A DNA stretch of 64,000 nt from an uncultured Actinomycetes bacterium (GTDB taxonomy: Bacteria > Actinomycetota > Thermoleophilia > Gaiellales > JALYLC01): assembly GCA_963845865.1 (NCBI GenBank), contig CAWJTT010000005.1:11315-75314 (forward strand). Reading direction: 5' to 3'. Positions 33,719-44,610 of this stretch are shown here, in pieces. Both the position numbers and the translations under genes were made by a program. Position 1 is the stretch's first letter. Each line of letters opens with the position of its first letter. The notes below the pieces were generated by a model, which made no database searches, was not told the origin of the DNA, and worked only from the letters and a program-made list of their open reading frames with translations.

Positions 33719-33908
33719 GATCGGTCCTCCTGTAGTTGATGGTTGTTCCGTGGGACTCATCTCCTGTGCGACGAACGGGCGCGGCGGACGGGGACAGGCG
33801 GGCGGGATCCGCGACCGGCATGCGGAGAGGGGCCGCCGCCGGCGGCCCCTCGTGGCGTCCACCCGCCGCGGCGGCGTGGCGGGCCCTCGGTCTGCGCCAT
33901 CGCCTCGA

Positions 33909-35387
33909 TCACGCCGCCGGCTCGAGCACGACATCCACGTCGACCCGTTCTGCCTTCGGAGTTGCCTTCGGCCTGGACTCGAGGAAGGCGGCGGCGATCG
34001 CCGCTCCCGCGAGCGCCGCGGCGGTGAGCGCGTAGAACGCGACCTGGAACCCGTGCGTGAGCGCCGGGCCGCTGAAGGCGGGCACCTCGTGGCCGTCGGC
34101 GTAGTGGCTCGTCGCGGTGGCGGCGATCGTCGTCACCGCGGCCAGCCCGACGGAGCCGCCGATCTGCCGGCTCGTGTTGATCAGCCCGGAGGCGACGCCC
34201 GCGTCGGCGGACTCGACGCCTGTGAGGCCGGCGATCGTCACCGGCACGAACGAGAGGGCGAGCCCGAACCCGCTGACGACCAGCCCGGGGAACACATCCC
34301 AGAAGTAGTGCCCGTCGGCGGGCATCTGGGCGTAGAGCGCTGCGCCGGCCGCGGTGAGCAGCAGGCCGGCGCTCAGCACCGGTCGTGCGCCCAGCCGGGT
34401 GGTCAGCGCCTGGCCGAGGTTCGAGACGGCGATGATCGTGGCGGTGATCGCGATGAAGGCGACGCCTGTCTCGATCGCCGAGTAGCGCAGGACCTCCTGC
34501 AGGTACAGCGTGACCAGGAAGAACTGCGCGAACGCAGTCGCGCCGATCGTCAGCGTCACCGCGTTGGCGGCCGACAGCGTCCGCAGGCGGAAGATCCGGA
34601 GCGGCAGCAGCGGCGCGGGGGAGCGTGCCTCGATCCCGACGAACGCCGCGATCAGCGCACCCGCGGTGGCGAGTAGCCCGACCGTCACGCCATCGCTCCA
34701 GCCATGCTCGCTCGTGCGGGTGATCGCGTAGACCAGCGTCATCAGCCCGGCCGTGATCGCGGTGGCGCCGGCCACGTCGAAGTGCCGGTGCGCGACGGCG
34801 GCCCGGCTCTCGCCCACGAGCCACGGGGTGACGGCGAGGACGGCCGCCCCGATCGGCAGGTTCACGAAGAAGATCCACGACCAGCTCAGGTACGAGGTCA
34901 GGACGCCGCCGAGCAGGACGCCGACGGCGCCACCGCTGCCGGAGGCAGCGCCCCACACGCCGAGCGCGATGTTCCGCTCACGCCCCTCGCGGAAGGTGGT
35001 GACGACGATCGAGAGCGCGGCCGGGGCGAGCAATGCGCCGCCGAGGCCCTGCAGTGCCCGGGTGGCGATCAGCGCGCCTTCCGACCAGGCGAGCCCGGAC
35101 AGGAGCGAGCCGAGCGTGAACACTCCGACGCCTGCCATGAACACGCGCCGGCGTCCGAGCAGGTCGGCCAGGCGGCCGCCCAGCAGCAGCGTTCCGCCGA
35201 ACAGGAGCGCGTAGGCGGTGACCACCCACTGCAGGCTCTCCTGGGAGAAGTGGAGGTCATCCTTGATCGCCGGCAGGGCGACGTTCACGACCGCGACGTC
35301 GACGATGACCATGAACTGCGCGGCAACGGTCACCGCGAGCACCAGCCAGCGCCTCCTGTCGGGGTTGGTAGCGAGTAGCGCGTTCAT
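33909..35387 (-). CDS. MFS transporter, 14-TMS drug:H+ antiporter (DHA2/EmrB-QacA) type
   Basis: ATG 35387 has AGGAGGG upstream. LPAIKDDLHFSQESLQWVVTAYALLFGGTLLLGGRLADLLGRRR is present. Length is 492 aa. Confidence 0.9.
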   Translation of the reverse strand: MNALLATNPDRRRWLVLAVTVAAQFMVIVDVAVVNVALPAIKDDLHFSQESLQWVVTAYALLFGGTLLLGGRLADLLGRRRVFMAGVGVFTLGSLLSGLAWSEGALIATRALQGLGGALLAPAALSIVVTTFREGRERNIALGVWGAASGSGGAVGVLLGGVLTSYLSWSWIFFVNLPIGAAVLAVTPWLVGESRAAVAHRHFDVAGATAITAGLMTLVYAITRTSEHGWSDGVTVGLLATAGALIAAFVGIEARSPAPLLPLRIFRLRTLSAANAVTLTIGATAFAQFFLVTLYLQEVLRYSAIETGVAFIAITATIIAVSNLGQALTTRLGARPVLSAGLLLTAAGAALYAQMPADGHYFWDVFPGLVVSGFGLALSFVPVTIAGLTGVESADAGVASGLINTSRQIGGSVGLAAVTTIAATATSHYADGHEVPAFSGPALTHGFQVAFYALTAAALAGAAIAAAFLESRPKATPKAERVDVDVVLEPAA

Positions 35388-35405
35388 AAGGGGCCCTCCT
35401 TGGGC

Positions 35406-35430
35406 GTTCGTGTCTGTCAAGACCACGAAC
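35406..35430. promoter_or_regulatory. 7-bp inverted repeat GTTCGTG-N11-CACGAAC upstream of the MFS gene
   Basis: It was read directly and overlaps a TTGACA on the coding strand. No cognate regulator gene lies next to it. Confidence 0.25.
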
Positions 35431-35556
35431 AGAGCGACGCCCGGGGGACATGGAGCGTGAGAGCCTTTCGATCCGCGCTTCGATGGAGCGCCGCTCGGGC
35501 CCGTCGCGGGCGCGGTCACGTCGCCCAAACGCATCGCTCCGAGTCGTTCTCGCGCG

Positions 35557-36429
35557 CTACGGCACTTGTCGAGTGGGGCTCAGCGACTCGGCGTGTGCGA
35601 TGTCGCGAGGCCCTCGACGCGCGCGGAGCATGCGCGCGTAGTCGTGCCGTGTGCGCGCGAGCCATGGGCGGGCGTCCATGCGCGCGTTCGCGTCGAGTGC
35701 TGCTTCGAAATGGCGGACTGCATCCTCCCAGCGTCCAAGCACGGCTGCGGCGTTGCCGAGGCTGCGTGATACGTCGCCGAGGCTGATCTCGTCTGCGTTG
35801 GAGGCGTTGCGCCCCGCATGTGGACGCAGCAGGTCGTAGAGCGTGCCGGCGTGGTCGGCGGAACCCAGTCGTTCGCTCGCGTCGGCGAGGAAGCTCATGC
35901 AGAAGAGCCATTCGTTGTCGACCGGAATGTCGGTGAACGCGCCGACGGCGAGGTGCTCGAGCGCAGTACGCGCCTCGTCCTCACGGCCGAGATCGCAGAG
36001 CAGGAGAACGAGCGCGCAGCGGAATACCGGCCGCGCCGGATACTCCTGAACGGATCGTCTGATCGTCTCCTCGATCTCGTCCAGACGGCCTTGCTCGCGT
36101 CGGAGCAGGAAGAGCTGGAGGCGCGACGAGAGGGTGGCATCTTGGTTCATGGCGTGGCGGCCGAGCTCGAGCGCTCGCGAGATCAGAGTTTCGGCGTCGT
36201 CGAGTCGCCCGGTAAGCAGCGCCAGGTTGGCGCGCGTTGCCGCGACGTACCAGAGCTGCGCGGGCTGTCGTAACTCGTCCGCGTAATCGCCGCAAACCCT
36301 GTCAGCCCATGAGCGTGCTCCGCGCGAGCGGTCGGGAGACCGCTCGCGCGCGTGCGGGTCGCCGCGAGGTGGGAACGAACGAGCAAGAGGCCGCCGTACT
36401 CCGTAACCTCCTCGATCGCGCGCGCAGGG
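35557..36429 (-). pseudogene. remnant of the TPR region of a large STAND/cyclase/LuxR-type regulator, truncated at both ends
   Basis: The frame is open from the TAG at 36432-36430 down to the stop at 35557. The first ATG/GTG/TTG is at 36150. The product (...LWYVAATRANLALLTGRLDDAETLISRALELGRHAMNQDATLSSRLQLFLLRREQGRLDE...ARPWLARTRHDYARMLRARRGPRD...) looks like the distal helical repeats of such regulators. It has no ATPase or HTH. Confidence 0.5.
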
Positions 36430-36446
36430 CTAGGCTTGGTCGGGCC

Positions 36447-37880
36447 GTGGCGTCGAGGCGCGCAGAGAAGTCCGCGGTCGCGTTCGCGGCCGGGCCTGTG
36501 CTTGTCGTCGTCGCGCTGAAGAGCGCTCTGGCGCTTGCGGTCGCCGGACGGTACGGCTGGCATCGCGACGAGCTGTACTACGCCGTCGCGGGCCTGCATC
36601 TTCAGGGCGGCTACGTCGAGTTTCCGCCGGGGACGGCGCTGTTCTCGGCACTGGCCCGGGAGTTGTTCGGCTGGTCGCTCGTCGGCCTTCGTGCCTTCAC
36701 GATCCTCGCGAGCGCGGGAGCGGTCCTGGTCGGTGCGCTCATCGCCCGTGAACTCGGAGGGTCGCGACGTGCCCAGACGCTCGCGGCGGTGATGATCGGG
36801 TTCGCGCCTGGGATGCTCGCGACGAACCTGCTCTTCCAGCCCGTCGCGCTCGACCAGCTCACGACGATGGTCGTCCTCTGGCTTGCGCTGCGACTCGCGC
36901 TCGGGCGCGGATCGTGGGCGCTCCTGGGAGTCGCCGCGGGCGTCGGGCTCGAGACGAAATACACGATCGCCGTCGTCCTCGTCCTGCTCGTTGCGACGTT
37001 CCTCGTCTGGCGCCGTGACCTACTGCGCTCCTGGGGCTTCCCGCTGGCCGTGGGCATTGCGGCCCTGCTGCTCGCACCCAACCTCGTCTGGGAGGCGAGC
37101 CACGGCTGGGCGAGCGTCCACTGGTTCCTCAACCCTCCGCCGAGCGCCAGCGACGAGACGAGGCCGCAGTTCGTCGCCAACCTGACACTGCTCACGCTGG
37201 TGGCCCTTCCGGTCGCCGTCGCGGGAGTCGTCTCGCTCGTCCGCAACCGCGCGCTGCGCCCGCTCGGCTGGACGGTCGCCGGCACCGTCGTCGCATACCT
37301 CGTGCTCGGCGGAAAGTCGTACTACGCGCTGCCGGTCGTGTTGTTCGCGCTCGCCGTCGGGGCGATCCCGTTCGATCGCTGGGCGACTCGCCCCCGTCTG
37401 GCAATGGCCGGCACTGCCTTCGCCGCGACCGGCCTTCTCGTGCTACCGCTCGCCCTGCCCGTGCTGCCGCTACACACGGCCGTCCGGGTCGGGGTCGTAA
37501 AGGCGCGTAGCGACTATCAGTCGGAGGTCGGCTGGCCCGCGTACGCGCGCCTCGTCGAGCGGCACGCGAAGGGTACCGATGTGATCGTGGCGGACAACTA
37601 CGGCGAGGCGGGGGCGCTCGACGTGTTCGGCCACCGCCTCCCGCCGGTCGCGTCGGCAGACGTGACGATGCGATACTGGCGCCCGCAGGTTTCCGGGCGA
37701 CGCGCGCTCGTGATCGGCTACTCCCGGCACGCCGCGAGCTTCTGCAGCGGCTACCGCGTCGTGGCCCGCATCTCAGCGGCGGATGACAGCGATGAGGGCG
37801 GCGAGCCGATCGCGCGCTGTGCGCTGCGTGGCACACTCGCCGAGGTCTGGCCGAGCATCGTCGCCTCCAACCCCGAGTAG
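36447..37880 (+). CDS. family 39 glycosyltransferase (ArnT/PMT-like, polytopic membrane protein)
   Basis: YGWHRDELYYAVAGLHLQGGYVEFPPG is present with many TM helices. GTG 36447 is approximate. The upstream part of track ORF 36237..37880 is Arg-rich. Confidence 0.8.
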   Translation: MASRRAEKSAVAFAAGPVLVVVALKSALALAVAGRYGWHRDELYYAVAGLHLQGGYVEFPPGTALFSALARELFGWSLVGLRAFTILASAGAVLVGALIARELGGSRRAQTLAAVMIGFAPGMLATNLLFQPVALDQLTTMVVLWLALRLALGRGSWALLGVAAGVGLETKYTIAVVLVLLVATFLVWRRDLLRSWGFPLAVGIAALLLAPNLVWEASHGWASVHWFLNPPPSASDETRPQFVANLTLLTLVALPVAVAGVVSLVRNRALRPLGWTVAGTVVAYLVLGGKSYYALPVVLFALAVGAIPFDRWATRPRLAMAGTAFAATGLLVLPLALPVLPLHTAVRVGVVKARSDYQSEVGWPAYARLVERHAKGTDVIVADNYGEAGALDVFGHRLPPVASADVTMRYWRPQVSGRRALVIGYSRHAASFCSGYRVVARISAADDSDEGGEPIARCALRGTLAEVWPSIVASNPE

Positions 37881-37946
37881 GTCGCCCATGCGCTTGGCGT
37901 CTCATGGAAACACGGCGCCCGCCCACCACTGATCGATGTGGGACTG

Positions 37947-38363
37947 CTAGCCCCAGACCCCGCTCGCGCCTGTTGCGCTGAGTGCGTCGGCACGGTGGAG
38001 GTAGTCCTGCATGAACGTGATGCGCCCGTCGCGCAGGGTGAACACGACACACGCCTGTCCGCGGGGCGGCGAGTGGTCATCGAGTGGAACGCCGACGCCC
38101 GGGCCGCGCACGCTCATGATCACATGCTCGCCAGCCGCTATCAGCTCGAGGGCCTCGACCGCGGGCGGGTTCCCGACGCGCGCGCCGACCCGCTCGAGCA
38201 CCTGATCCCGGCCCTGGCAGACCCAGTCCGGCTTCAGCCCCTGGTGGACGACGTCGGGGGAAAGGCGCTCGCTCATCGTGTCCAGATCCCCGCGCCGCAT
38301 GGCATCGAGCCAATCGCGGAAGATGATCTCAACGTTCGACGAACCGGCATCGGAACCAGCCAC
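37947..38363 (-). CDS. SnoaL-like / NTF2 family protein
   Basis: The pattern IIFRDWLDAMRRGDLDTMSERLSPDVVHQG ... VVFTLRDGRITFMQDY fits. Length is 138 aa. Confidence 0.7.
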   Translation of the reverse strand: MAGSDAGSSNVEIIFRDWLDAMRRGDLDTMSERLSPDVVHQGLKPDWVCQGRDQVLERVGARVGNPPAVEALELIAAGEHVIMSVRGPGVGVPLDDHSPPRGQACVVFTLRDGRITFMQDYLHRADALSATGASGVWG

Positions 38364-38467
38364 GCGCCATCACCTCAAACGCTCGCCCGGACGGATAGAC
38401 AGCACCGGGACGTTACCAGCGCCTCCTGACTCGAGGCCGGACCTCTCGTCGTGGTCAGCCCGCCGCG

Positions 38468-38510
38468 GCCGCCGTTCGCGCCGACGACCTCGCCGTGCGC
38501 GAAGGCGATG
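38468..38510. repeat. left copy of a 43-nt imperfect direct repeat (40/43 identical to 40955..40997)
   Basis: GCCGCCGTTCGCGCCGACGACCTCGCCGtGCGCgAAgGCGATG. On the minus strand it encodes IAFAHGEVVGANGG with no gene attached. Confidence 0.9.
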
Positions 38511-38516
38511 AGCCAG

Positions 38517-38551
38517 TCCGGCGCCCGGCGTGTTGTGCGCCGGGCGCCGGA
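38517..38551 (-). terminator. 14-bp perfect hairpin after the 738-aa gene
   Basis: TCCGGCGCCCGGCG - tgttgtg - CGCCGGGCGCCGGA, 13 nt after the stop at 38564. Confidence 0.6.
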
Positions 38552-38563
38552 CTTGCGGTCAGG

Positions 38564-40780
38564 TCAGCGCACGACGCGCAGCGATCGCGTTGCGGCGAGC
38601 GACTGCAGTCCCTGCGCGTCCTTGGCGGTGACGCGGAGCGTGTATCTGTGCGGTGCGACGTGCTTGAGCGACAGCACGACGGTGAACAGGCCCGCCTTCT
38701 TGCGCGAGACGGTCAGGGCGCGCACGACCTTCTTCCTGGAAAGCACGCTGATCGTGACCTTCGCAGGCTCGGAGAGCTTGAGCTTCAGCTTGAGCAGATG
38801 GCCCTTGGCGAACTGGTGCACGGACACGATGTGCACCTTCGGCTTCGTAGGCTTCGGAGGCTTCGGCGCTGCGATCGTTGTCAACGTCTGATCGGCGCCC
38901 GTGATCGAGCCGAAGTCGCTCGAAGCGACGGCGCGGTAGTGAATCGTGCTCCCGGCGGGCAGGCCCGCGAGAGCGGCGCTGAACGAGGTCGCCGAGGACC
39001 CGACCCCGAGCAGCTGGTCCGGAGTGCTCGAGCCGTATGCGGTCGTCGCACCGAAGTCGAAATGCACCTTGACGCGGGCGCCGCCCGGGTTGACCGTGCC
39101 CGACAGCGTCGCTGCGTGCGTGCTCACGGCCGAGGCAGCGCCAGTCGCGACGTCACTCGGCGCGTAGGCCTGGGCGAACAGGTGTTGAGCTCCGGCGGGG
39201 CCGTCCGCGAACAGGAAGAACGGCGTACCGGCCGCGCCGGCCTGACAGGTGGCTCCATCGGCATTCGTCGGGTTCGCGGTGCAGGTCGACGAGACGGGCG
39301 GGCGGAGGTCGGCGGTGCCCACCTTGGCGACGCCGGTTGGCGTGTCGAGCTTGAAGACCGGATTGGCCGCGCCGCCTTCGAAGTGACCGCTGAACGTGCG
39401 GTGCTGACCGGCGACGTCCTCCTGCCAGGTGATGTACGGAGTGTTTCCAGAGAATGCGATGTCAGGCCGCGAAGCGTCGTTCAGGGTGTTCGAGATCGGC
39501 TGGCCCTGATTGAAGACCTCGAAGTGATCGCCTCCGACCAGGCGCGAGACGAAGATTCCGTGACGTCCCGCACCGATCGTCTCCGACCAGACCACCCACG
39601 GCACCGTCGTGCCGCCCGGCGTGAGCGTGCCTGCCGCGACACGCGGATCCTCGGCGTCGACGGTCGCGTCCTTGTTGAGCGAGCAGGCGCGCTCCGCACC
39701 GGCGCTCGCCAGGCAAGGGCCGAACTGGTTGGCCCCCGAGGTGTCGAGCACGTTGTTCTGCCCGGCCGTGCCATTGCCGACCGCGACCCAGTGGAAACCA
39801 CCGTCCGCGCTGGCGTCCGGAACTGCCTTGGCGGCGAACACGAGCTCGTTGCCGACTCCGTTGAGGCCCGGGTTCTGCTCGTACCAGACGACCCAGGGAA
39901 CCGTGTCCGACGGGCCCGTGAAGGCATCATCGGGCTCGATTCCATCGCGCGTCGGATCGATGCTCAGCGTCGGGTCGCCCGTCGGGGACGAAGCGCCGGT
40001 CGTGGGGTTCAGGCGATCGAGTCCGACCTGAAGCCAGCAGAATCCGTTGACGTTGGCGTTGCCACTCGCGGGCTTCCCGACGCACGGCGTGCCCGGAGCC
40101 GCCTGCTTGACGGCGCGCGAGACGAAGATCTGATTCTTCCCGGTACCTGCGCCGTCGAGTTCCTGCCAGGCCACCCAGGGTACGGGATCATTGCCCGCGA
40201 CGGCGGCCCCGCCGACGACGGCAGGATTCTCCGCGTCGCGAGTGACGTTGATGTTGAGCGACGGTAGCCCGTGGCTCGGCGCGCGGTCCTGACCCGCCGG
40301 CAGCCAGACATTGGCGGCTGCCGAGAAGCGGCTCGCGAAGATCTGCTTCTTGTTGCCGAGGAACGAGTTCGGTTCGTACCACGACACCCACGGCACGGTG
40401 CGGCCCGCCCCGGCGAAGTCGACTGAAGGAGCCTCGGCGTGAACCGTCGGATCGATGTTGAGCGACGCCGGGAACCCTTGCGTCACCCATGCGCCGCCCT
40501 TGAAGGCGCGTACGAAGATTTGCTGCGAGGTGCCGCTCTTCTGCTCGAACGTCGCCCAGGGCACCTGGAGGTTGCCTGCAACCACCGTGCCGCCCTGAAC
40601 GTCGGAGACGCCGGCATCCTGGTTCGGGTCGATGCCGTTGGCGGGGTCGTTGTTGACCTGGGAGCCGTCGGCCGGCAGGCCGACGAAGGCAGCAGTAGCG
40701 GTCGCGGCGAGCACGAGGGCGATCGCCGTCGCCACCGTCGCAAGCAGCGCGTGCCGTCTGTGCGGGACCAATGCCCACAT
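38564..40780 (-). CDS. large secreted protein: six PW-type repeats (putative beta-propeller), an FN3-like TTAYG module and an Ig-like tail
   Basis: ATG 40780 has AAAGGAA 6 nt upstream, and the track starts at TTG 40786. The signal or anchor is ALLATVATAIALVLAATATAAFVG. The repeats are VPWATFEQKSGTSQQIFVRAF, VPWVSWYEPNSFLGNKKQIFASRF, VPWVAWQELDGAGTGKNQIFVSRAV, VPWVVWYEQNPGLNGVGNELVFAAKAV, VPWVVWSETIGAGRHGIFVSRLV and TPYITWQEDVAGQHRTFSGHF. These are followed by LSGTVNPGGARVKVHFDFGATTAYG, a PKPPKPTKPK linker and a Lys-rich beta tail. Confidence 0.8.
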   Translation of the reverse strand: MWALVPHRRHALLATVATAIALVLAATATAAFVGLPADGSQVNNDPANGIDPNQDAGVSDVQGGTVVAGNLQVPWATFEQKSGTSQQIFVRAFKGGAWVTQGFPASLNIDPTVHAEAPSVDFAGAGRTVPWVSWYEPNSFLGNKKQIFASRFSAAANVWLPAGQDRAPSHGLPSLNINVTRDAENPAVVGGAAVAGNDPVPWVAWQELDGAGTGKNQIFVSRAVKQAAPGTPCVGKPASGNANVNGFCWLQVGLDRLNPTTGASSPTGDPTLSIDPTRDGIEPDDAFTGPSDTVPWVVWYEQNPGLNGVGNELVFAAKAVPDASADGGFHWVAVGNGTAGQNNVLDTSGANQFGPCLASAGAERACSLNKDATVDAEDPRVAAGTLTPGGTTVPWVVWSETIGAGRHGIFVSRLVGGDHFEVFNQGQPISNTLNDASRPDIAFSGNTPYITWQEDVAGQHRTFSGHFEGGAANPVFKLDTPTGVAKVGTADLRPPVSSTCTANPTNADGATCQAGAAGTPFFLFADGPAGAQHLFAQAYAPSDVATGAASAVSTHAATLSGTVNPGGARVKVHFDFGATTAYGSSTPDQLLGVGSSATSFSAALAGLPAGSTIHYRAVASSDFGSITGADQTLTTIAAPKPPKPTKPKVHIVSVHQFAKGHLLKLKLKLSEPAKVTISVLSRKKVVRALTVSRKKAGLFTVVLSLKHVAPHRYTLRVTAKDAQGLQSLAATRSLRVVR

Positions 40781-40951
40781 GAGCAATTCCTTTCTCGTGG
40801 TTGACGTGCCAGTCGCAAGGACGCCACGAGCTGCCGCTTATTCCCGCCCCTGTGCAAGAACGCCGGAGACAAGGCCGGCACGGCGCGCCTGTCCGCCTTC
40901 TGAGCGGCTACTGAAGCGAGCACCGAACCCCGTGCCTGACAGCTGGCTGAT

Positions 40952-41251
40952 TCAGCCGCCGTTCGCGCCGACGACCTCGCCGCGCGCAAACGCGATGTGC
41001 ACGGGATAGCCCTCGAGCCGGTCCGGATCGGGCAGCCCGTGCCTGGCCCGCATCGCCCGGAACGGCTCGCCGGCGTGGAAGGCCTCGAAGACCTCCTTCG
41101 TCGGGCAGGTGTCGACGACGATGATCCCGTCGTCCGTGCGCAGGCACAGGTGCAGGATCAAGCCCTCGGCCGGAATCTCGGCGAGCAGTGCGTCGTAGCG
41201 GCGCAGGAGGTCGTCGGGATCTCCTCGCAGGTGCGAGATGGATGCGTGCAT
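40952..41251 (-). CDS. small alpha+beta protein (99 aa), paralogue of 47306..47620, ABM/dimeric-barrel-like
   Basis: ATG 41251 lies 8 nt after the amidase stop. It reads MHASISHLRGDPDDLLRRYDALLAEIPAEGLILHLCLRTDDGIIVVDTC...HIAFARGEVVGANGG. Its last 14 codons form the right copy of the 43-nt repeat (40955..40997). Confidence 0.65.
   Translation of the reverse strand: MHASISHLRGDPDDLLRRYDALLAEIPAEGLILHLCLRTDDGIIVVDTCPTKEVFEAFHAGEPFRAMRARHGLPDPDRLEGYPVHIAFARGEVVGANGG
40955..40997. repeat. right copy of the 43-nt direct repeat
   Basis: GCCGCCGTTCGCGCCGACGACCTCGCCGcGCGCaAAcGCGATG. It forms the 3' end of CDS 40952..41251. Confidence 0.9.
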
Positions 41252-41259
41252 GGCCGTTC

Positions 41260-42697
41260 CTATCGCGTCGTCGTCGGGGTGGGTGACAAGGCGTAGCGAG
41301 GCCAGCCGGCGACCTCCTCGAGCTCCGTCGCCATGGCGAGCAGGAGGTCTTCCCGGCCGGGTGGTCCAACGAGCTGCGCGCCGACCGGGACGCCCCCGGC
41401 GGAGATCCCGAGCGGCACGCTCATCGCCGGCTGGCCCGTGACGTTCCAGATGCGCACGAGCGCGCTGAAGCGCACGGCGTCGTCGGTGACGCCGGCCTGT
41501 GAGCGCATGCCGCCGACCTCGGCGGGCAGCCTGGTCAGGGTGGGCGTGACGAGAACCTCGTCGTCGCCCCAGCCCGCCAGTATGCGCCGGGCGAATGCCC
41601 ACAGGCGCTCGCCCGCCTCGAGATAGTCGACCAGCGGCACGGGCTGCGAGTCGATCAGCCAGGCGCGTGTCGCGGGCTCGAGCCGTTCCGGGTCGGCGCG
41701 GCGGCCGTGCAGGCGCTCGACGACGTGTACCAGGTGCTGCGCGCAGCCCGTCAGGTACGTCGCCCAGCTCGACGGGAACGACTCGTCGTCCCAGTCGGGC
41801 GACCCGCTGCGTACGTCGTGGCCGAGCTCGGCGAGCGTCGCGGCGGCGAGCGATGCCGCGGCCGTCGGCCGCGTCGTCGACCGGCACTCCGAGCGGAGCG
41901 GTGAGCGAGAGGCGGACGGAGAGTCGCTCAGGCCGGATGCGGGCGGCCTCCGCGAACGAGTGCGGGCGAGACGGCGCACCGTGCCGGTCACCCGGCTCGT
42001 AGCCGGCGATCGCGTCCAGCGCGACCGCGGTGTCCCGCACGGTGCGGGTGAGCGCGCCGTCGACGGGCATCCCGCCGGCGATGTCGCCGAAGTCGGGGCC
42101 GATCGAGACGCGGCCGAGCGCGGGCTTCATCCCTACGACGCCGCAGCACGACGCCGGGATGCGAATCGAGCCCCCGAGGTCGCTGCCGTCGGCTATCGCG
42201 ACCATGCCCGAGGCGACTGCCGCGGCGCTGCCGCCCGAGGAGCCGCCGGCCGAGAGCCCCGGGCTCCAGGGGTTGCGGGTGGCTCCGAAGCGCGCGTTCT
42301 CCGTGACCGGGCGAAGACCGAGCTCCGGCGTGTTCGTCTTGCCGACGATGATCGCGCCGGCCTCGCGCAGGCGCCGCACGTGGGCGCTGTCGTGGTCGGC
42401 TATCCAGTCGCCGAACGCGCTGCTCCCCTCGCTGGTCGGGATGCCCTCGGTGGCCGAGAGCAGGTCCTTGATGCCGATGGGCACGCCGCAGAGTGGCCGC
42501 GCGTCGCCGACGCGAACGCGGTCGGCCTGGGCCAGCGCCCGCTCGGCGCAGACGTGAGAGAACGCATTGAGCTCCGGATTGAGCTGCTCGATGCGGAGCA
42601 GCGAGGCCTCGACGAGCTCGCGCGCCGAGAGCTCGCCGGTACGCACGAGGGCTGCCTGCTCGACGGCGCTCAGCTCGAGGACCTCTTCACCGGTCAT
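41260..42697 (-). pseudogene. amidase-signature family amidase with a +1 frame change at about 41860-41866
   Basis: Frame 1 reads MTGEEVLELSAVEQAALV...GIKDLL...GGSSGGSAAAVASG...GGSIRIPAS...LSLTAPLGVPVDDAAD and then becomes nonsense. Frame 2 (track ORF 41260..41991) continues AAASLAAATLAELGHDV...NVTGQPAMSVPLG...VGAQLVGPPGREDLLLAMATELE. Confidence 0.75.
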
Positions 42698-42870
42698 CGC
42701 GGGTCAGTCCCTGCGGGCGACGTCCCGGGGAACTCCTGCGCGCGCTCTGCATCGACGTCGATCACTGCCATCGCCTCCTGTGTTCGCAGGTCGATCGCAG
42801 TGTCTGTGTGCCGCCGCTTGCGCACATGCGTGCCGGTACCCAATTCGCCGGCGGCCGGTACGCATCTTCC

Positions 42871-44484
42871 TCAGGCCAGGCCGTGCGCGTGCGCCCAGGC
42901 GGTCGCCGCGGCGCGCGCGCTGCGGCCGGAGACACCGATCTTGCCGTAGATGTTCTCGACGTGGCGCTCGACAGTGCGTACGCTGAGCACGAGCTCCGAG
43001 GCGATCGCGTCGTTCGATCGTCCCTGCGCGAGGAGGTGGAGGACCTCGCGCTCGCGCGCTGTCAGGAGCGACTGCTCATCCGGCGCCGCTGGAGCAGGAG
43101 CGCCGAGCTCGGCCAGCGCGGAGCGGGCCGCGACAAGAGCTGCATCTGCGGCGTCGAGTCGGCCCTGCGCGCGCAGCACATCTGCCAGATCGAGGCGGGC
43201 CTGCGCAGCCTCGTAGCGAGCACCGCAGGCCGCATAGAGGTCGATGGCATCCTCGAGCGCGCTCCGTGCCGCGGCCGGCTCGCGCTTGGCTTCGACGCGT
43301 CCGCGCGCGAGCAGCGCCGCGGCCCGGAGAGGATCCGTGCCCGCTTCGGCCGCGGTGCGCTCCAGCTCGGCTGCGGCGCTCTCGGCCGTCGGTGAATCGC
43401 CGACGCCCAGGCTGGCCCGCACCTGGAGCTCGAGACCCGGCGCGCGCTCGAAGCGATCCTTCTCCCCGACCCGGCGCAGGTAGCGCTCCGCCTCCTCGAC
43501 CGCCCCCGACGCATCACCACGGTCGAGGCAGAGGGCCGCTCGCACGAGCAACGCCAGGCGGTGCCCCTCCGCCTCCGCCAGCAGTGCACCGGCCTGGTCC
43601 GGCCGGCCCTGCCGGCGGCGCAGCTCCGCAAGGCGCACGAGTCCGTCGGCGACCTTGCGGGGCACGCCGCCGAGATCGCGACATGCGGCGGTGAGCGTCT
43701 GCTCCGCCTCGCTCCACTGCCCGCGCCAGACGAGCAGATCGGCGTAGTGGGTACGGCAGGTCGCGAACATCTCCGCGTCCGCGTAGCGCTCCGAGATCTC
43801 CCCGACGCGGAGGCACCACTCGCCTGCGCGATCGAGATCGCGCACCCGCTGGCAGGCGTCGATCAGGTGGCAGCAGATGACCTCGACCATCCGCACGACC
43901 GCGATCTCGCCCGCGACGGCCGAGGTCGTCGCCTCGTCCAGCAGGCGCATGCCCTCGCGCACCTCGCCTGCGGCGACTTGCGCCAGGCCCTCGAGCGCTC
44001 GGCAGATCATCTCGTAGTCGAGCGATCCCGCCGCGACCGCCGCCGCGACGCCCGCCGCCGCCTGCCGCTGGGCCTCGGCCGGATCGTGGTCGCCGTTGAG
44101 CGCCCGGTTCGCCCGCCAGTACGCAAGTGCCGCGTGCTCCGGCGCAGGGGGCAGTCCCTCCAGCAGATGCCCGGCGCGCTCCAGCCAGCCGTTCGCCTCC
44201 GCCGCGCCGCGAAACTGCGCGCAGTCGAATGCCAGCTCTATGGCCAGCCGCGCCGAGGCCGGCTCGTCGCCTGCCTCACGCGCCAGTCGGTAGGCGCGCT
44301 CGTGCGACGCCAGTGCCGTGGGCCCGTCCATCTGCCAGCGGGCAGCGACGCCGAGGCCCTCGAGTGCCTCGACCGTCTCCTCCGCGGCGAGCGCGGCCTC
44401 GAAGCAGGAGCGCGCCTCGGCCCAGGCGGCGCGCACCAACGCCGCTCGCCCGGCCGGCAGGGAGCTCTCCCCGAGAGCACTCAC
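42871..44484 (-). CDS. LuxR family regulator with a long N-terminal TPR-like sensor region and no ATPase
   Basis: The C-terminal HTH is LTAREREVLHLLAQGRSNDAIASELVLSVRTVERHVENIYGKIG. The start is approximate: GTG 44484 was chosen so the gene does not overlap the divergent gene. Confidence 0.8.
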   Translation of the reverse strand: MSALGESSLPAGRAALVRAAWAEARSCFEAALAAEETVEALEGLGVAARWQMDGPTALASHERAYRLAREAGDEPASARLAIELAFDCAQFRGAAEANGWLERAGHLLEGLPPAPEHAALAYWRANRALNGDHDPAEAQRQAAAGVAAAVAAGSLDYEMICRALEGLAQVAAGEVREGMRLLDEATTSAVAGEIAVVRMVEVICCHLIDACQRVRDLDRAGEWCLRVGEISERYADAEMFATCRTHYADLLVWRGQWSEAEQTLTAACRDLGGVPRKVADGLVRLAELRRRQGRPDQAGALLAEAEGHRLALLVRAALCLDRGDASGAVEEAERYLRRVGEKDRFERAPGLELQVRASLGVGDSPTAESAAAELERTAAEAGTDPLRAAALLARGRVEAKREPAAARSALEDAIDLYAACGARYEAAQARLDLADVLRAQGRLDAADAALVAARSALAELGAPAPAAPDEQSLLTAREREVLHLLAQGRSNDAIASELVLSVRTVERHVENIYGKIGVSGRSARAAATAWAHAHGLA

Positions 44485-44610
44485 GGGCGGAAGCGTACGG
44501 CGAATCCGCGGCAGAGCGACGAGCACAGCGACGGCGGAGCAGGACCGCGAGCGGCGTATACTCGCAACATCCGGTCCACCGCCCTCGAGACCCTGCCGTC
44601 GGGAAGTCGA

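What the first reader, a model, noticed from the sequence alone, without database searches (positions are those of the whole stretch)
38468..40997. A gene cassette (promoter, 738-aa gene, terminator) bracketed by a 43-nt direct repeat copied from the neighbouring gene's 3' end
The 43 nt at 38468-38510 and 40955-40997 are identical at 40 positions and lie in the same orientation. The right copy encodes the last 14 codons (IAFARGEVVGANGG-stop) of the 99-aa gene 40952-41251. The left copy encodes IAFAHGEVVGANGG but is attached to no gene.

Exactly between the two copies lie the 14-bp terminator hairpin, the 738-aa gene and its upstream region, about 2.44 kb in total. This is what a target duplication would leave after a discrete insertion into the end of the small gene. 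A duplication-mediated rearrangement is the alternative. No recombinase is present.
Basis: seen in the sequence. Interest (0 to 1): 0.6.

Follow-up and report, generated by a model that had tools for sequence, protein, structure and literature searches.

The report
Orphaned gene end: a recombination scar
The 43-base repeat is real, but it is the decaying remnant of a roughly 110-base duplication left by a one-off recombination event beside an accessory gene, not the footprint of a mobile gene cassette.

Summary
Window 38468-38513 and 40955-41000 match at 42 of 46 bases in direct orientation. These are the only two copies in the 5.2-Mb assembly. Five other assemblies of the same species carry both copies.

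The repeat is longer than it looks. A sister haplotype, V, still has an intact 335-nt spacer after the 99-aa gene. V is seen in ENA contig L057 and in Logan contigs from three soil runs. In V the gene end, the stop codon and about 65 nt downstream match the window's left copy plus the sequence that follows it (89 of 97 aligned bases). The window's right-hand copy lost about 164 nt just after its stop codon. The left copy lost 12 nt, including the stop.

A third lineage (L037/L044, 92% identical) has the same gene order and hairpin but no left copy. No empty site was found in relatives or in 12 soil runs. Homologues of the 740-aa gene elsewhere share only the coding region. No recombinase, terminal inverted repeats or extra repeat copies are present.

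Best reading: an orphaned 3' gene end left by Campbell-type or homology-facilitated illegitimate recombination. This is ordinary genome plasticity and of low interest.

The parts
40952..41251 (-). 99-aa gene of unknown function. It is the last gene of a regulator-amidase-99aa module.
   Evidence: ORF. No Pfam hit. 453 homologues, mostly from Thermoleophilia-type soil MAGs. It follows an amidase gene in L036-L038, L042, L043 and L058-L060.
40955..41000 (-). Right copy of the repeat. It forms the functional last 14-15 codons of the 99-aa gene.
40946..40954 (-). Stop codon TGA plus ATCAGC. Directly after this (40945/40946) the window lacks about 164 nt that haplotype V still carries, namely the 'tail', B' and segment d.
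   Evidence: MAFFT alignment of the right-hand spacers of the window, L036, L038, L037 and L057. The X12 Logan contig agrees.
40787..40945 (-). Upstream region and ribosome-binding site of the 740-aa gene. It is shared at 93% identity with haplotype V and in part with L037.
   Evidence: No sigma-70 consensus match and no Rfam match.
38564..40786 (-). 738/740-aa secreted repeat protein, an accessory gene. The start is TTG at 40786 or ATG at 40780.
   Evidence: ORF. No Pfam hit. Absent from the 9 other species of the genus, with a paralogue on own contig C50. Homologues at 75-83% identity lie in unrelated contexts, and similarity stops at the ORF ends.
38512..38556 (-). Terminator-like hairpin after the 740-aa gene. 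It has a perfect 16-bp G+C-rich stem, a 7-nt loop and no U tract.
   Evidence: (inverted repeat I17). Unique in the genome. Conserved in L037 and L044.
38468..38513 (-). Left copy: an orphaned, non-coding copy of the 99-aa gene 3' end. It lacks 12 nt (TGAATCAGCGGC, including the stop codon) compared with haplotype V's right-hand unit.
38408..38467 (-). 'Tail' (38436-38467) and B (38408-38435). This spacer follows the left copy and is homologous to the spacer that follows the 99-aa stop codon in haplotype V. It therefore belongs to the duplicated unit.
   Evidence: BLAST of L057 1013-1125 against window 38508-38408. Global alignment gives 89 matches, 8 mismatches and 14 gap columns. Logan contigs in X3, X12 and X15 agree.
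37947..38363 (-). SnoaL-like gene downstream of the scar.
   Evidence: Pfam SnoaL_2, E = 3e-11.

Best explanation
The 43-nt repeat is the surviving core of a direct duplication of about 110 nt. The duplicated unit, U, consists of the last 46 nt of the 99-aa gene, its stop codon and about 65 nt of downstream spacer. The two copies of U bracket a 2.4-2.6-kb segment, X. X holds spacer and promoter sequence, the accessory 740-aa secreted-protein gene and a strong hairpin.

The structure U-X-U is the scar of a single recombination event that placed X between the 99-aa gene and the SnoaL gene. There are two candidate mechanisms. One is a single crossover (Campbell-type) between the chromosome and a circular piece of related DNA that carried U and X. 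The other is homology-facilitated illegitimate recombination, with a homologous anchor in the amidase/99-aa region and an illegitimate join at the microhomology GCACA(T/C)CGC next to the hairpin. Either way one copy of U completes the gene and the other is left downstream as an orphaned 3' end. This resembles the 'C-terminal displacement' described for Rhs and T6SS loci.

The orphan has no function and both copies are decaying by deletion. The window lost about 164 nt of the right copy and 12 nt of the left copy. The L037 lineage lost most of the left copy and the spacer part of the right copy.

Shown: the duplication, its true extent, the lineage-specific deletions, and the absence of hallmarks of a mobile element. 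Inferred: the type of recombination event, and that the form lacking the left copy is derived.
For: 1. The repeat is real and occurs only twice in the genome.

2. Haplotype V has the 99-aa gene end, TGAATCAGC, the 'tail' and B' in one piece. L057 is 97.7% identical to the window across the amidase and 99-aa genes. An independent 1037-nt Logan contig in run X12 and 148-nt contigs in X3 and X15 show the same form. This unit matches the window's left copy plus tail plus B at 89 of 97 aligned bases. So the sequence after the left copy was once contiguous with a 99-aa gene end.

3. In run X12 the only right-hand form is V (depth 6.3). Contigs carrying the left copy sum to a depth of about 5.1. V genomes therefore probably carry the full U-X-U structure.

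4. The 740-aa gene is accessory. It is absent from 9 other species of the genus, and its homologues lie in unrelated contexts with similarity confined to the ORF.

5. Relatives with the amidase-99aa pair but a different downstream gene (L042, L043) put a synteny break at the end of the 99-aa gene.

6. The 10 bases kept after the hairpin in L037 (GCACACCGCC) match the start of the left copy at 9 of 10 positions. That includes the left-copy-specific C of GCC.

7. There is an experimental precedent. Single crossovers between a circular molecule and the E. coli chromosome produced duplications of 109-950 bp of the homologous segment (PMC3240628). Orphaned 3' regions have been attributed to homology-facilitated illegitimate recombination at Rhs and T6SS loci (PMC5361080).
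Against: No empty site (99-aa gene, then U, then SnoaL with no X) was found. I looked in GTDB relatives, JGI contigs, ENA contigs and 12 soil runs.

The L037/L044 lineage has the same gene order with no left copy. Under this model that needs two independent deletions, and I could not polarise the indel with an outgroup.

The three copy-specific substitutions are too few to date the event.

Linking the left and right sites of haplotype V rests only on metagenome depths.

L057 is a low-coverage contig (1.9x) whose far end may be chimeric.

The ENA contigs carry apparent frameshifts, so 1-2-nt indels in these alignments are unreliable.
Confidence: 0.6

Rival explanations
1. Secondary patch copy. 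The 740-aa gene was already in place and the L037-type arrangement is ancestral. A break next to the hairpin was later repaired by copying about 70-80 nt from the 99-aa gene end, 2.4 kb away. The mechanism would be template switching or synthesis-dependent strand annealing, primed from microhomology or from the B/B' similarity. In this reading the repeat says nothing about how the 740-aa gene arrived.
For: L037 and L044 share gene order, hairpin and flanks with the window but lack exactly the left copy plus tail. The junction carries GCACA(T/C)CGC both at the source (GTGCACATCGCG) and at the L037-type target (TTGCACACCGCC). A long perfect hairpin is a plausible break site. At the six sites where the window's and L037's right copies differ, the left copy has the window's state. 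Outgroup states suggest these are ancestral, so the point is weak.
Against: Haplotype V carries tail plus B' at the right site. B and B' are therefore duplicated as well, and this model needs a second, reciprocal copy event or an older B/B' duplication. The tail has no other source in the genome.
Confidence: 0.28
2. Site-specific mobile cassette. X is, or was, an integrative element or a cassette mobilised in trans. Its attachment site would overlap the 3' end of the 99-aa gene, and the repeats would be attL and attR.
For: Direct repeats that include a gene's 3' end and bracket a self-contained gene are the classic footprint of integrase-mediated insertion (established knowledge of actinomycete integrative elements). 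The repeat geometry is shown.
Against: X contains no recombinase; its only ORF has no Pfam hit. The nearest tyrosine-recombinase match on the contig is 43 kb away and weak. The repeat and the hairpin each occur only at this locus. Homologues of the 740-aa gene in other genomes, and the paralogue on C50, share no flanks. No excised or empty form appears in 12 runs. There are no terminal inverted repeats and no integron core sites.
Confidence: 0.04
3. Tandem duplication of the whole unit (U plus X), with its junction at GCACATCGC. The second copy of X was then lost by recombination between B' and B.
For: It gives the same end product, U-X-U. The microhomology sits at the hairpin/left-copy junction.
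Against: It needs two events and a pre-existing B' at the right site. No haplotype with two copies of X was seen.
Confidence: 0.06

Closest known systems
Campbell-type (single-crossover) integration scars
   Same: A direct duplication of the homologous segment brackets the inserted DNA. In E. coli conjugation experiments the duplications measured 109-950 bp (PMC3240628). That range includes the roughly 110 nt seen here.
   Different: No circular donor, plasmid backbone or donor genome has been identified. The event is old: the copies are about 92% identical and both have suffered deletions.
Homology-facilitated illegitimate recombination and 'C-terminal displacement' (orphaned 3' regions at Rhs, CDI and T6SS effector-immunity loci)
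   Same: Incoming DNA is anchored by homology in a conserved upstream gene. The old 3' end is displaced and survives as an orphan downstream of the new DNA (PMC5361080, and the de Vries & Wackernagel 2002 and Jackson 2009 papers cited there).
   Different: The gene is not a polymorphic toxin. The new and old 3' ends encode almost the same peptide, so nothing was functionally replaced. There is only one orphan, not an array.
att sites of actinomycete integrative elements (identity segments that restore the 3' end of the target gene)
   Same: Direct repeats of tens to about 100 nt include a gene's 3' end on either side of the inserted DNA (established knowledge, not tested against a reference here).
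   Different: There is no integrase, excisionase or replication/transfer gene. The target is not a tRNA gene. No second occurrence and no empty site were found.
Transposon or IS target-site duplication
   Same: Direct repeats flank an insertion.
   Different: The repeat is 46 to about 110 nt rather than 2-14 bp. There are no terminal inverted repeats and no transposase.

Membership tests
IS/transposon insertion with target-site duplication | Short target duplication of fixed length (about 2-14 bp) | tested here: not met
   The duplicated unit is 46 nt in the window and about 110 nt when compared with haplotype V.
IS/transposon insertion with target-site duplication | Terminal inverted repeats at the ends of the inserted segment, and a transposase gene | tested here: not met
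   The only inverted repeat near either end is the terminator-like hairpin. The single ORF has no Pfam match.
Integrase-mediated integrative element (attL/attR at a gene 3' end) | Direct repeats that contain the 3' end of the target gene and bracket the element | tested here: met
Integrase-mediated integrative element (attL/attR at a gene 3' end) | A tyrosine or serine recombinase encoded inside or next to the element | tested here: not met
   Pfam scan of the bracketed ORF and its neighbours. PF00589 hits in the genome: the nearest is at C5:6123-6548, 43 kb away, at 32 bits. Serine recombinases were not searched separately.
Integrase-mediated integrative element (attL/attR at a gene 3' end) | The same element with the same ends elsewhere, and unoccupied sites in relatives | tested here: not met
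   Similarity of 740-aa gene homologues stops at the ORF ends. No empty site in relatives or in 12 soil runs.
Integron gene cassette | A promoterless ORF followed by an attC site (imperfect inverted repeat with GTTRRRY-type core sites), in an array next to intI | tested here: not met
   The hairpin is a perfect 16-bp G+C stem with no such core sites visible at its flanks. The gene has its own conserved 165-nt upstream region. There is no array and no intI.
Recombination scar (Campbell-type or HFIR; orphaned 3' gene end) | One repeat copy completes the gene and the other is a non-coding orphan downstream of the inserted DNA | tested here: met
Recombination scar (Campbell-type or HFIR; orphaned 3' gene end) | The duplication runs past the gene end into formerly contiguous flanking sequence | tested here: met
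   In V the right site has gene end, stop, tail and B' in one piece, homologous to the window's left copy, tail and B.
Recombination scar (Campbell-type or HFIR; orphaned 3' gene end) | Microhomology at the illegitimate junction (HFIR variant) | tested here: inconclusive
   GCACA(T/C)CGC lies at the hairpin/left-copy junction and in the 99-aa gene. The same bases could simply be the first bases of the copy.
Recombination scar (Campbell-type or HFIR; orphaned 3' gene end) | Identifiable pre-insertion (empty) form and a donor form | tested here: not met
   Neither was found.

The most novel reading that the evidence does not exclude
The spacer between the 99-aa gene and the SnoaL gene is a recurrent break-and-copy hot spot, seeded by the perfect 16-bp hairpin. 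Accessory genes would be captured or exchanged there without any dedicated recombinase, through att-like repeats of about 110 nt. The three co-existing haplotypes (V, window type, L037 type) would then be snapshots of capture and scar decay. The odd contig L057, which has a different ORF behind the same ribosome-binding site, would be a real gene swap rather than a chimera.
Probability: 0.06. Interest if true: 0.5.

Novelty: new member of a known kind. Interest (0 to 1): 0.2.

Why it matters
It matters mainly as a worked example. A short repeat that seems to frame a gene cassette neatly can be the eroded core of a longer duplication. Its apparent exact boundaries, such as ending at the stop codon, can be produced by later deletions.

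The three co-existing haplotypes in soil populations of one uncultured Thermoleophilia-type species show how quickly such scars decay. They also show that this chromosomal region is a mosaic of relocated modules. The finding points to no new mobility mechanism and no new function.

Tried and rejected
1. GTDB relatives were not useful at this scale. Same-genus genomes have 99-aa homologues at only 52-63% identity and no synteny. None has the 740-aa gene, and the best SnoaL homologue is 63% identical.

3. An apparent empty-site joint in run X3 (38470 joined to 40946) looked like the predicted unoccupied site. Following it through X12, X15 and L057 showed it is the right-hand site of haplotype V, where the tail follows the 99-aa stop codon and the 740-aa gene still lies downstream. 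I rejected it as an empty site.

4. I tested whether the spacer after the 99-aa stop codon is a longer relic of the rne 3' end seen next to the module in L042. Only 13 of 14 bases right after the stop match, and free local alignments are no better than shuffles.

5. A 29-nt match to the repeat near the C50 paralogue lies in the 3' end of an unrelated convergent gene. I take it as a chance match between G+C-rich sequences.

6. The ORF 'Y' behind the shared ribosome-binding site in L057 has no Pfam hit and is absent from the own genome. Its only relative among GTDB genomes is in a Polyangia MAG. L057 has 1.9x coverage, so I treat this as a possible chimera and not as evidence for cassette exchange.

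7. There is no Rfam family, no sigma-70 consensus promoter and no marked composition shift across the segment. G+C is 68% in the segment against 70-75% in the flanks.
Full report
**Observation.** All relevant genes lie on the minus strand. In reading order they are:
- an amidase gene (41260-42697, frameshifted in this assembly);
- a 99-aa ORF (40952-41251);
- a 165-nt spacer;
- a 738/740-aa ORF (38564-40786);
- a hairpin (38512-38556);
- the left repeat copy (38468-38513);
- about 100 nt of spacer;
- a SnoaL-like gene (37947-38363).

The two copies match at 40 of 43 positions, or 42 of 46 when extended. None of 100 shuffles of the window gives two matches to the consensus. The 5.2-Mb assembly holds only these two copies. 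The left copy reads ...LIAFAHGEVVGANGG in a frame with no start codon and no further similarity to the 99-aa protein. The hairpin has a perfect 16-bp stem, a folding energy of -45 kcal/mol and z = -6.5, and is unique in the genome.

**Who else has it.** Species representatives of the same genus are too distant to help. Their 99-aa homologues are 52-63% identical and sit in other contexts, and none has the 740-aa gene. Strain-level relatives come from metagenome assemblies.

Contigs L036, L038, L058, L059 and L060 are about 98% identical to the window. They share the whole arrangement and both repeat copies, with the same three copy-specific differences: GCC/GCG, TTC/TTT and CAC/CGC.

L037 and L044 are about 92% identical. 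They have the same gene order, the same hairpin and the same SnoaL leader, but no left copy. After the hairpin they read TTTGCACACCGCC and then run straight into CTCAAGAGGGCGCTGGTAACG, which is the B segment.

**The repeat is longer than it looks.** Laying Logan contigs from soil runs on the region gave a joint between 38470 and 40946 in run X3. At first this looked like the predicted empty site. It is not.

A 1037-nt contig in run X12, from a different study, reads in order:
- the 5' end of the 740-aa gene and its upstream region, up to 40908;
- 167 further bases;
- window 38436-38472, the 'tail';
- TGATTCA and the 99-aa gene.

ENA contig L057 is 97.7% identical to the window across the amidase and 99-aa genes and gives the full sequence. 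In this haplotype, V, the spacer after the 99-aa gene is 335 nt instead of 171 nt. It reads:
- TGA ATCAGC;
- the tail (GGCCGAGGCGGGCTGACCACGACGAGAGGTCCGGC);
- B' (TCGAGTCAAGAGGGCGCCGGTAACGGCC);
- about 100 nt also present in L037;
- the upstream region shared with the window.

The stretch from CAC(A/G)TCGCG to GGTAACG in V aligns with the window's left copy plus tail plus B. The alignment has 89 matches, 8 mismatches and 14 gap columns. The main gap is a 12-nt deletion in the left copy (TGAATCAGCGGC, flanked by GGC repeats) that removed the stop codon.

The duplicated unit U is therefore about 110 nt: 46 nt of coding sequence, the stop codon and about 65 nt of spacer. The window's right-hand U lost about 164 nt immediately after TGAATCAGC. 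That loss is why the repeat seems to end exactly at the stop codon. L037 lost the tail and B' on the right and the copy and tail on the left.

In run X12 the only right-hand form is V (depth 6.3). Contigs carrying the left copy sum to a depth of about 5.1, close to the 5.0 of the contig covering the 3' end of the 740-aa gene. V genomes therefore probably carry the full U-X-U structure. This is an inference from depths, not a physical link.

**Is the bracketed segment a mobile cassette?** The evidence says no.
- The 740-aa gene is accessory. It is absent from the 9 other species of the genus. It is present in two other genera of the family, and a paralogue at 81% identity lies on own contig C50.
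- Homologues at 75-83% identity lie in unrelated neighbourhoods: cyclase/DsbA, sigma factor/anti-sigma factor, and others.
- In every comparison, DNA similarity stops at the ORF ends. No common promoter, terminator or repeat travels with the gene.
- The segment has one ORF with no Pfam match.
- The nearest tyrosine-recombinase-like match on the contig is 43 kb away and weak.
- There are no terminal inverted repeats, no Rfam hit and only a mild composition difference.
- No empty site and no excised form were seen in 12 soil runs from at least seven studies.

**Context: a mosaic region.** In L042 (86% identical) the regulator-amidase-99aa module sits inside the rne-rplU-rpmA core cluster. The own genome has that cluster on contig C47 without the module. 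In L043 the amidase-99aa pair is followed by a PAP2 gene. Synteny with both relatives breaks at the end of the 99-aa gene.

In L037 the SnoaL gene is followed by a different set of genes than in the window. Earlier notes on this genome also report a truncated regulator relic and a low-G+C gene nearby. The locus is plainly rearrangement-prone.

**Mechanism.** Two copies of a formerly contiguous 110-nt piece, bracketing 2.5 kb, are most simply made in one step. One route is a single crossover between the chromosome and a circularised piece of related DNA that carries U and X. Experiments in E. coli produced exactly such duplications of 109-950 bp (PMC3240628). The other route is homology-facilitated illegitimate recombination, anchored in the amidase/99-aa genes with an illegitimate join at GCACA(T/C)CGC next to the hairpin. 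That route leaves the resident 3' end orphaned downstream, as proposed for Rhs and T6SS loci (PMC5361080).

Under this model L037 is derived by two deletions. Its 10 retained bases (GCACACCGCC) match the start of the left copy at 9 of 10 positions, including the left-copy-specific C.

The main rival is that L037 is ancestral. The left copy would then be a later patch of 70-80 nt, copied from 2.4 kb away during repair of a break at the hairpin. This explains L037 without deletions. It needs a second event to explain why B is also duplicated at V's right site, and the tail has no other source in the genome.

I could not polarise the indel. No outgroup carries the junction between the 740-aa gene and the SnoaL gene, and the few informative sites in the 46-nt copy appear to be shared ancestral states.

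Both readings are recombination or repair scars with no dedicated machinery. My estimates are about 0.6 for duplicative insertion, 0.28 for the patch copy, 0.06 for tandem duplication followed by deletion, and 0.04 for a site-specific element.

**Caveats.**
- The ENA contigs carry apparent frameshifts, for example fragmented amidase calls in L036 and L042, so 1-2-nt indels are unreliable. The 12-nt, roughly 68-nt and roughly 164-nt indels are supported by independent assemblies or short-read contigs.
- L057 has 1.9x coverage. Directly behind the shared ribosome-binding site it carries an ORF unrelated to the 740-aa gene. The only relative of that ORF among GTDB genomes is in a Polyangia MAG. 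I treat that end of L057 as a possible chimera. Its spacer sequence is corroborated by the X12 contig.

**Verdict.** This is a new instance of a known kind of scar and is of low interest.

Noticed in passing
window 40969-44511; L042 2733-6284; own genome C47:13763-13937: The 3.55-kb regulator-amidase-99aa module is itself relocatable. In L042 (86% identical) it lies between rne and rplU/rpmA. In the own genome that core cluster is on C47 with only a 173-nt spacer at the same place. In haplotype V, 13 of the 14 bases after the 99-aa stop codon match the reverse complement of the rne 3' end in L042. This may be a relic of that location.
   Followed up: partly
window 41260-42697: The amidase gene needs a frame change in the window. 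It is an intact 478-aa ORF in L037, L038 and L058-L060. This is either a real recent pseudogene or an indel error in the assembly.
   Followed up: partly
L057 1392-1637; L061 221-568: In the low-coverage contig L057 the shared upstream region and ribosome-binding site are followed by an unrelated ORF (MPSNNTTDLRTKV...) instead of the 740-aa gene. That ORF has no Pfam hit and is absent from the own genome. Its only relative among GTDB genomes (88% aa) is in a Polyangia MAG. It is either an assembly chimera or a rare gene swap at the start codon.
   Followed up: partly
window 33900-37900 compared with L037 8800-14223: In the L037 lineage the SnoaL gene is followed directly by an alpha/beta-hydrolase gene and the Zn-ADH / MR-MLE / ABC-importer cluster. 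The window has about 4.8 kb in between, holding a PMT-family glycosyltransferase gene, a truncated TPR relic and an MFS gene. This is a second structural polymorphism next to the scar.
   Followed up: no
own genome C50:11362-13575: A second copy of the 740-aa gene family (81% aa) has its own, different terminator-like hairpin. Similarity to the window's gene stops at the ORF ends.
   Followed up: partly
window 38460-38496: Many unrelated soil contigs match this G+C-rich 36-nt stretch at about 89% identity, with unlike sequence on both sides. This produces a depth spike in read-laying tables and could be mistaken for a common repeat.
   Followed up: partly
window 40787-40945; L037 5806-6000; L057 1228-1391: The upstream region of the 740-aa gene is conserved at about 93% between haplotypes, while the spacer beside it is riddled with large indels. 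There is no sigma-70 consensus and no Rfam match, so the promoter or leader is of unknown type.
   Followed up: no
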